DNA of 64,000 nt from Escherichia coli. GTDB lineage: Bacteria; Pseudomonadota; Gammaproteobacteria; Enterobacterales; Enterobacteriaceae. A program made the position numbers and the translations under genes. The stretch lies in assembly GCF_003019035.1 (NCBI RefSeq), contig NZ_CP027447.1; one strand, 5' to 3'. Position 1 is the stretch's first letter. Each line of letters begins with the position of its first letter. Positions 1 through 59,195 of the stretch are shown piece after piece. The notes below the pieces were generated by a model. It ran no database searches. It was not told the DNA's origin and was given only the letters and a program-made list of their open reading frames with translations.

Positions 1-70
1 TTGGCAGTACGCGGAAGAGATCGTCTAATTTGAAGCCTCCGCCGCTGGTACGGCGGAGGACAATGTTGAG

Positions 71-298
71 TCAGGCTTTTTGAACGGTGATGCTCCACGC
101 TGCATCGCCAATCTGCTGATAATCGGTGATGGCATGTCCTTCTTCTGCCGCCCACTGTGGGATTGCTTCAGTTGCCTGGGTGCAATCAAACTCAATTACC
201 AACTCATCGCCGCTGGCCATTTCTGCCAGTGCTGCTTTTGCTTCTATGAGTGGAAACGGACAGACCTGCGTCACCACATCCAGCTTTTTAATCGCCAT
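71..298 (-). CDS. yeeD: TusA-like sulfur carrier protein YeeD
   Basis: 75-aa ORF with N-terminal CPxP motif (VCPFP) typical of the TusA family; sits immediately downstream of yeeE as in E. coli. Confidence 0.8.
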   Translation of the reverse strand: MAIKKLDVVTQVCPFPLIEAKAALAEMASGDELVIEFDCTQATEAIPQWAAEEGHAITDYQQIGDAAWSITVQKA

Positions 299-4148: not shown

Positions 4149-4973
4149 TTACTCCAGCGGCATTACCAGCGGATCGGGATACTGGTATTCAAATCCCAGT
4201 TCATTACAAATCCGACTGCCATCAATAATCTTACCTTTTCCGCTGTCCAGACTATTTCTGAACTGCGGAGGTTCCAGTCCCAGTAAACGGGCCATCTGCG
4301 GATAGAAAACATTACGCGCAGGGTGAGCTGGCGCACATATATTATAGATGTGTCCGCCTTTAGGTGCCTGTAACAACAGAGTGATAGCGCCAATAACATC
4401 TTCTAAATGGACTAAATTAACACCATGTTCACCATCAGGGGCGGTTTTTCCGGCAAAGAAACGTCCGGGATGACGTCCCGGTCCGACCAGGCCCGCAAGA
4501 CGTAGAATATCGACCGAAGTTCCGGGTAAATTGTGCAGCCAGTCTTCGAGTTCTTCTAATACTCGTCCACTGTTGGTTACCGGATTACGCGGGGTGGTTT
4601 CTTTCACCGTGCCTTGCGCGTCGCCATAGACAGATGTTGAGCTGGTAAAAATAATGCGGGGAATACGATGGGCCAGCGCGCTATCTACTAACTCTTGTAC
4701 CGCTTGTAAATAAAACTCATCGCCGGGGCCGCTACGACGTGCCGGAAGCGTAATGACCAGCGCATCGGCATCCATCAGGGCATCCAGATCGTCAGAATCG
4801 CAAACTAACTCAGGCTCCATGCGAAGCAGATAGCTATCAATGCCACTCATTCGGGCCGCTTCGACACCATCTTGTGTGGTTTTACTCCCGGTAACTTGCC
4901 AGCCTCGCGCTGAAAGTGACATCGCCAGCGGCATGCCTAACCACCCTAACCCGACAATTGCGACCTTTTTCAT
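4149..4973 (-). CDS. yeeZ: NAD(P)-binding Rossmann-fold protein YeeZ (epimerase/dehydratase-like)
   Basis: 274 aa, N-terminal GxGxxG-type motif (VAIVGLGWLG); conserved position upstream of the his operon. Confidence 0.75.
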   Translation of the reverse strand: MKKVAIVGLGWLGMPLAMSLSARGWQVTGSKTTQDGVEAARMSGIDSYLLRMEPELVCDSDDLDALMDADALVITLPARRSGPGDEFYLQAVQELVDSALAHRIPRIIFTSSTSVYGDAQGTVKETTPRNPVTNSGRVLEELEDWLHNLPGTSVDILRLAGLVGPGRHPGRFFAGKTAPDGEHGVNLVHLEDVIGAITLLLQAPKGGHIYNICAPAHPARNVFYPQMARLLGLEPPQFRNSLDSGKGKIIDGSRICNELGFEYQYPDPLVMPLE

Positions 4974-5077
4974 CCGTTATCTCCTGATACACCTTAGATC
5001 TATAAGGCTACGCTAGCGTATCAAAACTGACAATTCATTCTATGAATGAAATCGAAACTGTTAGCAAATATACAATT

Positions 5078-5177
5078 GCCTGATGCGCTCCGCTTATCAG
5101 TCCTACAAAAACATCAATATATTGAATTTAGGCAACATTTGTAGACCAGATAAGGCATTCACGCCGCATCCGGCAGG
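5078..5177. repeat. REP / BIME-like palindromic units (two inverted REP copies)
   Basis: gcctgatgcgctccgcttatcag..tcctaca and the inverted tgtagaccagataaggcattcacgccgcatccggcagg match the canonical E. coli REP consensus by eye. Confidence 0.55.
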
Positions 5178-5331
5178 AACAAAGCCCACTTTAGTTACAG
5201 AACACAATGTTCTTGAGGGTTTTAAAGACATATTTTCACGATTACTTTTTTAACGTAGCCACTCCTGGCCCCCTCCTTTCCCCGCTCATTCATTAAACAA
5301 ATCCATCGCCATAAAATATATAAAAAACCCC

Positions 5332-5361
5332 TTGCTTTCTAACGTGAAAGTGGTTTAGGTT
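5332..5361 (+). promoter_or_regulatory. his operon promoter (-35 TTGCTT, 18-bp spacer, -10 TAGGTT)
   Basis: hexamers read directly about 40-70 bp upstream of hisL; matches the textbook his promoter arrangement. Confidence 0.55.
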
Positions 5362-5399
5362 AAAAGACATCAGTTGAATAAACATTCACAGAGACTTTT

Positions 5400-5450
5400 A
5401 TGACACGCGTTCAATTTAAACACCACCATCATCACCATCATCCTGACTAG
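5400..5450 (+). CDS. hisL: his operon leader peptide
   Basis: 16-codon ORF MTRVQFKHHHHHHHPD with seven consecutive His codons. Confidence 0.9.
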   Translation: MTRVQFKHHHHHHHPD

Positions 5451-5513
5451 TCTTTCAGGCGATGTGTGCTGGAAGACATTCAGATCTTCCAGTGGTGCAT
5501 GAACGCATGAGAA

Positions 5514-5548
5514 AGCCCCCGGAAGATCATCTTCCGGGGGCTTTTTTA
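5514..5548 (+). terminator. his attenuator (rho-independent terminator hairpin)
   Basis: AGCCCCCGGAAGAT-CATC-TTCCGGGGGCT followed by TTTTTT, between hisL and hisG. Confidence 0.85.
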
Positions 5549-5595
5549 TTGCGCGGTTGATAACGGTTCAGACAGGTTTAAAGAGGAATAAGAAA

Positions 5596-52448: not shown

Positions 52449-52482
52449 GCCGGATGCGGCGTGAACGCCTTATCCGGCCTAC
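52449..52482. repeat. REP (repetitive extragenic palindrome) element between wzc and wcaA
   Basis: GCCGGATGCGGCGTGAACGCCTTATCCGGCCTAC matches the E. coli REP consensus by eye. Confidence 0.5.
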
Positions 52483-58576: not shown

Positions 58577-58915
58577 ATGAGAAAAAAGCTGGCTTTTCTT
58601 GATACCAGTCTTGACGATTTACGCGCATTTCCAGAATCGTCTCGACAGGAAATTGGCTATCAACTCGACAGGTTCCAACAAGGGTTAAACCCATACGACT
58701 GGAAACCTTTTTCAACTATCGGCCCTGGTGTGCGAGAGATTCGTACTCGCGATGCTGATGGGATCTATCGCGTCATGTATATCGCAAAATTTGAAGAAGC
58801 GGTTTACGTATTGCATTGTTTTCAAAAGAAAACACAGACTACCAGTCAATCGGATGTTGATTTAGCCAAACGACGCTATAAAGAACTTGTTCAGGAGCGG
58901 AAAAATGAAAATTGA
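58577..58915 (+). CDS. type II toxin candidate, RelE/HigB superfamily (phage Gp49-like)
   Basis: 112 aa; upstream-toxin/downstream-antitoxin order; SD AAGGATGGAG and a TATAAT hexamer at 58557-58562; 3' end overlaps the next ORF. Confidence 0.6.
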   Translation: MRKKLAFLDTSLDDLRAFPESSRQEIGYQLDRFQQGLNPYDWKPFSTIGPGVREIRTRDADGIYRVMYIAKFEEAVYVLHCFQKKTQTTSQSDVDLAKRRYKELVQERKNEN

Positions 58916-59195
58916 AACCTTTGATAGTGTGTGGGATGCGGTGAGTGACACCCCTGAACAAGCGGAAAATATGCGGATCCGTGCCGAACTTGTAACGATC
59001 ATTAATAACTGGATTGAACAACAAGGGTTTAGCCAGGCCCAGGCAGCGTCTGCTTTAGGGGTCACTCAACCTCGCATATCTGAACTTGCCAGAGGTAAGA
59101 TCCAGATCTTTAGTATCGATAAATTGATCACCATGATGGCTCATGCAGGATTGCATATTCAACGTATTGAAATTCAATATCCACATGCTGCTTAG
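58905..59195 (+). CDS. XRE-family HTH antitoxin candidate (HigA-like)
   Basis: 96 aa from MKIETFDSVWDAV...; helix-turn-helix segment QAQAASALGVTQPRISELARGK; start overlaps the toxin stop by 11 nt. Confidence 0.6.
   Translation: MKIETFDSVWDAVSDTPEQAENMRIRAELVTIINNWIEQQGFSQAQAASALGVTQPRISELARGKIQIFSIDKLITMMAHAGLHIQRIEIQYPHAA

What the first reader, a model, noticed from the sequence alone, without database searches (positions are those of the whole stretch)
4974..5399. yeeZ-hisL intergenic region lacks the yefM-yoeB toxin-antitoxin genes and carries REP/BIME repeats instead
In E. coli K-12 the yefM-yoeB pair lies between yeeZ and hisL. Here the interval is only about 425 bp, with no ORF of 60 aa or more on either strand, and contains two inverted REP-like palindromic units (5078-5177) followed by the his promoter. 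So this strain apparently lacks that TA locus, while carrying a different TA-like pair elsewhere in the window (58577-59195).
Basis: partly seen in the sequence, partly recalled or inferred. Interest (0 to 1): 0.45.

Follow-up and report, generated by a model that had tools for sequence, protein, structure and literature searches.

The report
TA-free yeeZ–hisL spacer with BIME-1
This E. coli strain carries the common, already described version of the yeeZ–hisL spacer that has a small palindromic repeat element (BIME-1) where K-12 has the yefM–yoeB toxin–antitoxin genes; it is an ordinary, old two-allele polymorphism.

Summary
yeeZ starts at 4973 (- strand) and hisL at 5401. The 427-bp spacer has no ORF of 60 aa or more. 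It holds a z1 REP (5078-5106), a 34-bp L linker with an IHF-type core, and an inverted y REP (5141-5174). That is a single-copy BIME-1.

Against K-12, 217 bp (5051-5267) stand in place of a 658-bp segment holding yoeB, yefM and their operator.

Among 5,426 complete E. coli genomes:
- about 1,198 (22%) carry this allele, including O157:H7 and B/BL21 strains;
- 4,218 (78%) carry the TA allele;
- no genome needs to carry both, and no yefM-yoeB-like DNA turns up in the remaining genomes.

Seventy-five other Enterobacteriaceae species have only a 155-188 bp spacer. E. albertii and two unnamed Escherichia species carry the BIME allele. The K-12 cassette is 86% identical to an IncF-plasmid yefM-yoeB, and that homology starts at the yoeB stop codon. 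So the BIME allele is probably the older state and the TA cassette a later, plasmid-derived replacement.

An apparent "intermediate" allele in strain HH97 suggested the 217 bp were a decayed TA remnant. I rejected this: there is no direct homology, and HH97 is a base-by-base blend of the two alleles.

The absence in O157 Sakai and the REPs here were published in 2011. Low interest.

The parts
4149..4973 (-). yeeZ (SDR-family oxidoreductase), left border gene
   Evidence: 274-aa ORF; annotated yeeZ in SCU-301 and K-12-like records
4974..5050 (.). Left part of the spacer, shared by both alleles and partly conserved across Enterobacteriaceae
   Evidence: Identical to K-12; 97-99% identical in other Escherichia species; the left half aligns with other genera
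5051..5267 (.). Allele-specific 217-bp segment that stands in place of the 658-bp yoeB-yefM-operator segment of K-12. Microhomology makes the boundaries uncertain by up to about 10 bp.
   Evidence: Pairwise alignment and flank matching; found in about 1,196-1,198 of 5,426 genomes
5078..5106 (+). z1-type REP, an iREP in the Ton-Hoang convention, ending in CTAC at 5103-5106
   Evidence: 2 mismatches in 29 to the z1 consensus; sequence read
5107..5140 (.). 34-bp L linker of the BIME-1, with the IHF-type core ATCAATATATTG at 5113-5124
   Evidence: The CAATATATTGAATTT core is shared in part with the torZ-cmoB BIME (CAATAGATTGAATT, one substitution and one T fewer). The linker is 94-97% conserved across Escherichia species. 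PMC3333891 describes the L linker as carrying an IHF site.
5141..5174 (-). y-type REP, with its GTAG at 5141-5144 on the + strand
   Evidence: 3 mismatches in 34 to the y consensus; weak sub-threshold naRNA4 (REP-derived) Rfam match at 5144-5180
5175..5267 (.). Single-copy non-REP right part of the allele-specific segment; function unknown
   Evidence: Exactly one place in each of 1,198 genomes and none in TA-allele genomes; 86-94% identical across Escherichia species with no indels
5037..5064 (-). Candidate sigma-70 promoter for yeeZ (CTAACA-16-TAGAAT). It straddles the left junction, so its -35 hexamer is specific to this allele.
   Evidence: Consensus scan only, 9 of 12 matches; not tested
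5268..5331 (.). Right part of the spacer, shared by the BIME and TA alleles but largely without a counterpart in other genera; only its last bases (the A-run at about 5319-5325 and what follows) align with them
   Evidence: Multi-genus alignment
5332..5373 (+). his operon promoter block (TTGCTT ... TAGGTTAAAAGACATCAG), conserved across genera
   Evidence: The promoter assignment comes from established knowledge of hisGp, not from a test here.
5401..5451 (+). hisL leader peptide (MTRVQFKHHHHHHHPD)
5426..5549 (+). His leader attenuator RNA
   Evidence: Rfam RF00514, 132.6 bits, E = 1.2e-23

Best explanation
The interval is the TA-free allele of the Escherichia yeeZ-hisL spacer. It carries one BIME-1, made of a z1 REP, an L linker with an IHF-type site, and an inverted y REP. 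About 120 bp of single-copy non-coding DNA surround it.

The K-12 arrangement is the alternative allele. There, a roughly 580-bp plasmid-type yefM-yoeB module (promoter/operator plus both genes, no terminator) and about 72 bp of unknown origin replace these 217 bp.

Both alleles are old and segregate within E. coli at 22% versus 78%. The BIME allele is most likely the earlier Escherichia state, so this strain probably never had the cassette at this site rather than having lost it.

Functionally (inferred, not tested):
- The BIME-1 would act as a protein-binding, hairpin-forming structural element (IHF at L, gyrase/Pol I at the y REP) between the divergent yeeZ and his promoters.
- yeeZ must be driven by its own promoter here, not by read-through from yefM-yoeB.
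- The his promoter, hisL and the attenuator are unchanged.
For: Shown:
- Gene order and junctions.
- REP types and linker, and a paralogous BIME at torZ-cmoB that is 81% identical including the linker. The BIME-1 definition is in PMC3333891.
- Population counts: 1,196-1,198 genomes with this allele against 4,212-4,218 with the TA allele, one place per genome, no plasmid copies.
- 75 non-Escherichia species all have a 155-188 bp spacer with neither element.
- The BIME allele, with the same junctions, occurs in E. albertii and in Escherichia spp. E1V33 and MOD1-EC7003. Its divergence there (86-100% identity) is similar to synonymous sites of the flanking genes (80-93%).
- The TA allele occurs in E. 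whittamii and K-12.
- The cassette is 86% identical to yefM-yoeB on IncF-type plasmids of Citrobacter and Salmonella. That homology starts at the yoeB stop codon, within about 5 bp of the left allele junction, and ends about 78 bp upstream of the yefM ATG.

Published:
- O157 Sakai lacks yoeB/yefM between yeeZ and hisL, and REPs lie in yeeZ-hisL (PMC3158064).
- Chromosomal TA modules are described as horizontally acquired promoter-plus-ORF units (PMC5120126).
- REPs occupy the ccdO157 insertion site in other strains (PMC7167474).
Against: - The polarity rests on few species. E. fergusonii, E. marmotae and E. ruysiae were not recovered in the single genome scan.
- The TA allele is also old. Its 72-bp non-coding right end is 84.7% identical between K-12 and E. 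whittamii, like neutral flanks.
- The his-rfb neighbourhood recombines heavily. For example, yeeZ is 93.8% identical between the window and E. coli E69 while the BIME segment is 100% identical. Allele sharing between species could therefore be horizontal.
- Both alleles share about 55 bp on the right that other genera lack. This does not say which arrangement came first.
- No binding, transcription or fitness data were obtained here.
Confidence: 0.85

Rival explanations
1. The 217 bp are a decayed remnant (deletion scar) of an ancestral yefM-yoeB cassette that was later overprinted by REPs. On this view the strain's lineage lost the TA system.
For: The HH97 allele (L004:2853-3292) looked like an intermediate. 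It is significantly similar both to the window segment (z = 17-36) and to K-12 yoeB/yefM (z = 15-100), including in the same stretches. Both alleles also share the same flanks and about 55 bp of right-hand sequence that other genera lack.
Against: - Direct comparison of the 217 bp with the 658-bp K-12 segment gives no signal. The local score has z = 0. The colinear global score has z = 1-1.6, no better than the reverse complement.
- There are no TGTACA operator motifs and no protein-level hits.
- HH97 is a singleton among 5,426 genomes.
- 424 of its 440 bases match one allele or the other.
- The window segment threads onto it twice in different registers, yet HH97 has no internal repeat. That is the signature of a blended consensus or an odd chimera, not of descent.
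- The BIME allele occurs in E. albertii, and the cassette has plasmid relatives whose boundary coincides with the junction.
Confidence: 0.08
2. The strain still has yefM-yoeB, or a close homologue, at another chromosomal or plasmid site, so only the position differs.
For: TA modules are mobile. Plasmid-borne yefM-yoeB at 74-86% identity exist in Enterobacterales. The whole genome of this strain could not be searched at protein level.
Against: Word-11 blastn with the yefM-yoeB coding sequence finds 4,226 places in 4,218 genomes, none on plasmids. That leaves 1,208 genomes with no hit at all, which matches the 1,198 carriers of this allele plus about 10 others. Nothing is found in the 64-kb window.
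Confidence: 0.04
3. The BIME is a recent, strain-specific REP insertion or an assembly artefact rather than a stable allele.
For: BIME copy number varies between strains at many loci (PMC3333891).
Against: The same 217 bp with the same junctions occur in about 1,198 complete genomes and in three other Escherichia species, with no indels.
Confidence: 0.01

Closest known systems
yeeZ-hisL region of E. coli O157:H7 Sakai (Iguchi et al. 2011, PLoS One 6:e23250, PMC3158064)
   Same: Same allele. yoeB and yefM are absent between yeeZ and hisL, and REP sequences lie in the spacer. O157:H7 genomes match the 217-bp segment at about 97%.
   Different: Nothing essential differs. This work adds allele frequencies, exact junctions, the BIME-1 typing, outgroup states and the plasmid relatives.
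BIME-1 elements of E. coli (z1 REP - L linker - y REP; Bachellier/Gilson nomenclature, summarised in Ton-Hoang et al. 2012, PMC3333891)
   Same: One z1 and one y REP in inverse orientation, a long linker with an IHF-type core, single copy, intergenic.
   Different: The REPs carry 2-3 mismatches each. The base before the IHF core departs from the W of the WATCAANNNNTTR consensus. IHF binding was not tested.
ccdO157 / folA-apaH locus (Mine et al. 2009, as cited in PMC7167474)
   Same: A chromosomal type II TA cassette in some E. coli strains, with a short REP-containing spacer at the same intergenic site in others.
   Different: A different TA family and site. Decay series of the TA genes are documented for ccdO157, whereas no supported decay remnant was found here.
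K-12 yefM-yoeB module and its IncF-plasmid relatives
   Same: This is the alternative allele at this very site. The plasmid copy (Citrobacter sp. TSA-1, between traD and traT) shares 86% identity from the yoeB stop to about 78 bp upstream of yefM.
   Different: The window contains none of it.

Membership tests
BIME-1 (REP pair with L linker) | One z1-type REP | tested here: met
   5078-5106, 2 mismatches in 29 to the z1 consensus. The consensus was recalled from memory; the family definition is in PMC3333891.
BIME-1 (REP pair with L linker) | One y-type REP in inverse orientation, with the conserved GTAG | tested here: met
   5141-5174 on the opposite strand, 3 mismatches in 34, GTAG at 5141-5144. 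The two REPs pair in the fold.
BIME-1 (REP pair with L linker) | Long, conserved L linker that frequently carries an IHF site | tested here: met
   The 34-bp linker has ATCAATATATTG at 5113-5124. The whole BIME, linker included, is 81% identical to the torZ-cmoB BIME. The linker is 94-97% conserved across species. IHF binding itself is not testable here.
BIME-1 (REP pair with L linker) | Single copy at the locus (not a tandem array), extragenic | tested here: met
   Only these two REPs lie in 4974-5400, between yeeZ and hisL.
yefM-yoeB type II toxin-antitoxin locus | YoeB toxin ORF | tested here: not met
   No ORF of 60 aa or more. tblastn best hit has E = 0.19 in the segment and 1.3 in the window.
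yefM-yoeB type II toxin-antitoxin locus | YefM (Phd/YefM) antitoxin ORF | tested here: not met
   tblastn best hit has E = 0.084 on a 9-residue match in the segment and 2.9 in the window.
yefM-yoeB type II toxin-antitoxin locus | Operator with TGTACA repeats overlapping the promoter | tested here: not met
   No TGTACA on either strand of 4974-5400.
Decayed TA remnant (as described for ccdO157) | Statistically supported nucleotide homology to the intact cassette | tested here: not met
   Local z = 0; colinear global z = 1-1.6, equal to the reverse-complement control.
His operon leader / attenuator | Leader peptide with a run of His codons, plus the RF00514 structure | tested here: met
   MTRVQFKHHHHHHHPD at 5401-5451; RF00514 at 132.6 bits against a gathering score of 49.

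The most novel reading that the evidence does not exclude
REP/BIME-bearing intergenic spacers may be preferred landing pads for plasmid-derived TA cassettes. yeeZ-hisL would be a second E. coli case beside folA-apaH/ccdO157. The integration step might involve REP-associated DNA processing. The BIME and TA alleles might be kept as a long-lived polymorphism across Escherichia species, rather than one simply replacing the other.
Probability: 0.1. Interest if true: 0.5.

Novelty: already known. Interest (0 to 1): 0.15.

Why it matters
Mostly as bookkeeping. It shows that yefM-yoeB is accessory in E. coli and absent from about a fifth of complete genomes, including O157:H7 and B/BL21 strains. Conclusions drawn from K-12 about YoeB-dependent phenotypes, or about yeeZ being co-transcribed with the TA operon, therefore do not carry over to such strains.

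The locus is also a clean natural pair of alleles (TA cassette versus BIME-1) next to the his promoter. It could be used to test polar effects of TA insertion and the insulating role of BIMEs.

The HH97 case is a caution: a single odd assembly can mimic an evolutionary intermediate.

Tried and rejected
1. Vestige hypothesis. MAFFT alignments that included strain HH97 suggested that the REP pair and its flanks were colinear with the yoeB 3' and 5' ends, the yefM 5' end and the operator. I rejected this for four reasons:
- The window segment has no significant similarity to the K-12 segment on its own.
- HH97 is unique among 5,426 genomes.
- 96% of its bases match one or the other allele at single-base granularity.
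- The window segment aligns to it twice, in two registers (window 63-210 on HH97 121-282; window 106-198 on HH97 287-386), without any internal repeat in HH97.

2. Protein-level remnants. tblastn with word size 2 and no composition correction gave only noise.

3. My first REP pattern for the DNA search had the wrong length and found nothing. I replaced it with fuzzy matching.

4. The first HisG query was translated one base out of frame. Only coordinates were taken from it, and spacer lengths were re-derived from hisL itself.

5. Species identity of Escherichia sp. E1V33 and MOD1-EC7003 could not be resolved from the taxonomy.

6. Ramisetty & Santhosh 2016 (FEMS Microbiol Lett), which probably treats this locus, is not held.

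Full report
**Observation**

The window has yeeZ at 4149-4973 on the minus strand and hisL at 5401-5451 on the plus strand. The spacer between them is 427 bp. Its longest internal ORFs are 56 and 42 aa.

Fuzzy matching to the three E. coli REP consensus types finds two REPs in the spacer. A z1-type lies at 5078-5106 on the + strand, with 2 mismatches in 29. A y-type lies at 5141-5174 on the - strand, with 3 mismatches in 34. The only other REP in the 64 kb is a perfect y copy at 52449-52482.

The 34-bp linker between the two REPs contains CAATATATTGAATTT. It also holds an IHF-type core, ATCAATATATTG, at 5113-5124. As single-stranded DNA, the two REPs pair into one long hairpin (-15.1 kcal/mol, z = -2.3).

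Downstream come three known features:
- the his promoter block at 5332-5373, conserved across genera;
- hisL;
- the His leader RNA (RF00514, 132.6 bits).

**Comparison with K-12**

A K-12-like genome (L001) has yoeB and yefM between yeeZ and hisL. Pairwise alignment shows identity up to window 5050 and again from 5268. In between, 217 bp of the window stand against 658 bp of K-12 (L001:1952-2609). That K-12 segment holds yoeB, yefM and about 150 bp upstream of yefM. This is a replacement of one sequence by another, not a simple deletion.

The best-matching genome is SCU-301. It is 100% identical in the three stretches tested and has nothing annotated between yeeZ and hisL.

**Population frequencies**

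Among 5,426 complete E. coli genomes:
- The 217-bp segment is found nearly full-length in 1,196 genomes.
- Its single-copy right part (5175-5267) is found exactly once in each of 1,198 genomes.
- The K-12 segment is found in 4,212-4,218 genomes by megablast.
- The yefM-yoeB coding sequence is found in the same 4,218 genomes by word-11 blastn, at 4,226 places, none on plasmids.

The sum is 5,416. The two alleles can therefore account for almost all genomes without overlap. About 1,208 genomes have no yefM-yoeB-like DNA anywhere.

Carriers of the window allele include O157:H7 strains, B/BL21 derivatives (NEBExpress, BAP1) and ML35.

**What the element is**

Ton-Hoang et al. (PMC3333891) define BIME-1 as one z1 and one y REP in inverse orientation. 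The pair is single-copy and separated by a long, well-conserved L linker that frequently carries an IHF site. All of these features are met here.

A paralogous BIME between torZ and cmoB is 81% identical over 120 bp, linker included. This shows that the linker belongs to the repeat family rather than to local sequence. The remaining roughly 120 bp of the allele-specific segment are single-copy.

**A lead that failed**

One genome, HH97, has a 649-bp spacer. Its allele-specific 440 bp looked like a missing link. It is significantly similar to the window segment and to K-12 yoeB/yefM, even within the same stretches. This suggested that the 217 bp might be a decayed TA cassette overprinted by REPs.

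The evidence goes against this:
- The window segment compared directly with the K-12 segment gives no signal. The local score has z = 0. The colinear global score has z = 1-1.6, the same as the reverse complement.
- There are no TGTACA operator motifs and no protein-level traces.
- HH97 is unique among 5,426 genomes.
- 424 of its 440 bases match one allele or the other, interleaved base by base.
- The window segment threads onto HH97 twice, in two registers. One continues from the left flank and one from the right flank. HH97 itself has no internal repeat.

That pattern is what a consensus built from reads of two alleles would give. Homologous recombination between non-homologous segments would not produce it. 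I therefore treat HH97 as a probable assembly blend and not as evidence of descent.

**Polarity**

A scan of one genome per species with YeeZ returned 80 loci. All 75 non-Escherichia species have a yeeZ-hisL spacer of 155-188 bp with neither element. These include Citrobacter, Salmonella, Klebsiella, Enterobacter and Kluyvera.

Within Escherichia:
- The 424-426 bp BIME allele, with the same junctions, occurs in E. coli E69, E. albertii, Escherichia sp. E1V33 and Escherichia sp. MOD1-EC7003.
- The 866-bp TA allele occurs in E. whittamii and K-12.

The BIME segment is 86-100% identical across these species, with essentially no indels. That is comparable to or somewhat above third-codon identity in yeeZ and hisG (80-93%). 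This fits long vertical residence.

The K-12 cassette has plasmid relatives: 86% identity on IncF-type plasmids of Citrobacter and Salmonella, 83.5% on an E. marmotae plasmid, and 74-78% in Enterobacter and Pantoea. In the alignment with the Citrobacter IncFIB/FII plasmid, where the module sits between traD and traT, homology starts at the yoeB stop codon. That is within about 5 bp of the left allele junction. It ends about 78 bp upstream of the yefM ATG. This matches the published view of chromosomal TA modules as horizontally acquired promoter-plus-ORF units (PMC5120126).

Together these results favour the BIME allele as the earlier Escherichia state and the TA cassette as a later replacement.

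There are caveats:
- Few species were sampled.
- The TA allele is itself old. Its 72-bp non-coding right end is 84.7% identical between K-12 and E. whittamii.
- The his-rfb neighbourhood is a recombination mosaic.

**How it probably works**

The sequence shows a BIME-1 between two divergent transcription units, with the his control region intact.

The following points are inferred from established knowledge of BIMEs (PMC3333891):
- The L linker binds IHF and the y REP binds gyrase/Pol I.
- The element acts as a structural or topological insulator rather than as a gene.

One further inference comes from the anatomy. In K-12, yeeZ lies 82 bp downstream of yoeB and is thought to be co-transcribed with it (PMC5120126). 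In this allele yeeZ needs its own promoter. A candidate (CTAACA-16-TAGAAT, 5064 to 5037 on the - strand) straddles the junction. It is only a consensus match.

**Comparison with the literature, and novelty**

- Iguchi et al. 2011 (PMC3158064) state that Sakai lacks yoeB and yefM between yeeZ and hisL. They also report that REPs lie in yeeZ-hisL and that REP-containing indels distinguish strains there.
- The review PMC7167474 notes that TA content varies among E. coli strains. It also notes that REPs occupy the ccdO157 site in other strains.

The finding is therefore already known in substance. What this work adds is quantification, exact junctions, BIME-1 typing, outgroup states, plasmid relatives of the cassette, and the rejection of the remnant hypothesis.

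The pair at 58577-58915 and 58887-59195 is a Gp49/HigB-like RelE-superfamily toxin (PF05973, E = 3e-29) followed by an HTH_37 protein (PF13744, E = 5e-22). It lies between yegH and asmA. It is present at that site in 792 of 5,426 genomes, including UTI89 and O157:H7, and is annotated there as a RelE/ParE-family toxin.

**Verdict**

The feature is ordinary and already described, and interest is low.

Noticed in passing
window 58577-59195: A toxin-first TA-like pair lies between yegH and asmA: a Gp49/HigB-like toxin (PF05973, E = 3e-29) and an HTH_37 antitoxin-like protein (PF13744, E = 5e-22), overlapping by 29 bp. It is present at this site in 792 of 5,426 complete E. coli genomes, including UTI89 and O157:H7.
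   Followed up: partly
L004:2853-3292 (E. coli HH97, NZ_CP116409.1): This singleton 440-bp yeeZ-hisL allele is a base-by-base blend of the TA and BIME alleles; 424 of 440 bases match one or the other. The BIME-allele sequence is represented twice, in two registers. It is probably a consensus of mixed reads or an odd chimera, and it mimics an evolutionary intermediate.
   Followed up: yes
L003:3901-4078 (E. coli MEI4BO-21) and L087-L090: A third state exists in genomes labelled E. coli: a 178-bp spacer with neither TA nor BIME, no yeeY, and a his region only about 85% identical to typical E. coli. It resembles the spacer of other genera. This YeeZ sequence is listed in 454 blocks of the assembly collection. 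My guess, untested, is an imported his-rfb flank, as in strains with foreign O-antigen clusters.
   Followed up: partly
window 52449-52482: A perfect y-type REP (34 of 34 to the consensus) is the only other REP found in the 64 kb. It probably lies in the colanic-acid region, where Iguchi et al. report a conserved REP between wcaA and wzc.
   Followed up: no
L001:2591-2609 (K-12-like TA allele, right junction): There is a 9-bp inverted repeat, TAAGAGGAC-A-GTCCTCTTA, exactly at the right allele junction. One arm is TA-allele-specific; the other is homologous to the sequence at the same position in the BIME allele (CACTCCTG in the window, GTCACTCTTA in Escherichia sp. MOD1-EC7003). Its meaning is unknown.
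   Followed up: no
L001 vs L009 (K-12 vs E. whittamii): Third-codon identity is 92% in yoeB and 98% in yefM, against 83-86% in yeeZ and hisG. The non-coding 72-bp right end of the TA allele is 84.7%. Synonymous sites of the TA genes are therefore unusually conserved, or the genes were exchanged more recently than their surroundings.
   Followed up: partly
window 4149-5267 vs L007 (E. coli E69): yeeZ differs by 6.2% (51 mismatches, mostly at third positions) while the adjacent BIME segment is 100% identical. This marks a recombination breakpoint near the yeeZ start.
   Followed up: no
L005:1469-1632 and L006 (torZ-cmoB spacer): A BIME-1 that is 81% identical to the one in the window, linker included, is detected at this site in only part of the species. 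About 740 genomes gave partial 80-90% hits, so this may be another presence/absence or divergence polymorphism of a BIME.
   Followed up: no
L091:2501-3003 (Citrobacter sp. TSA-1 IncFIB/FII plasmid): A yefM-yoeB module 86% identical to the K-12 chromosomal one sits between traD and traT in the transfer region of an F-type plasmid.
   Followed up: partly
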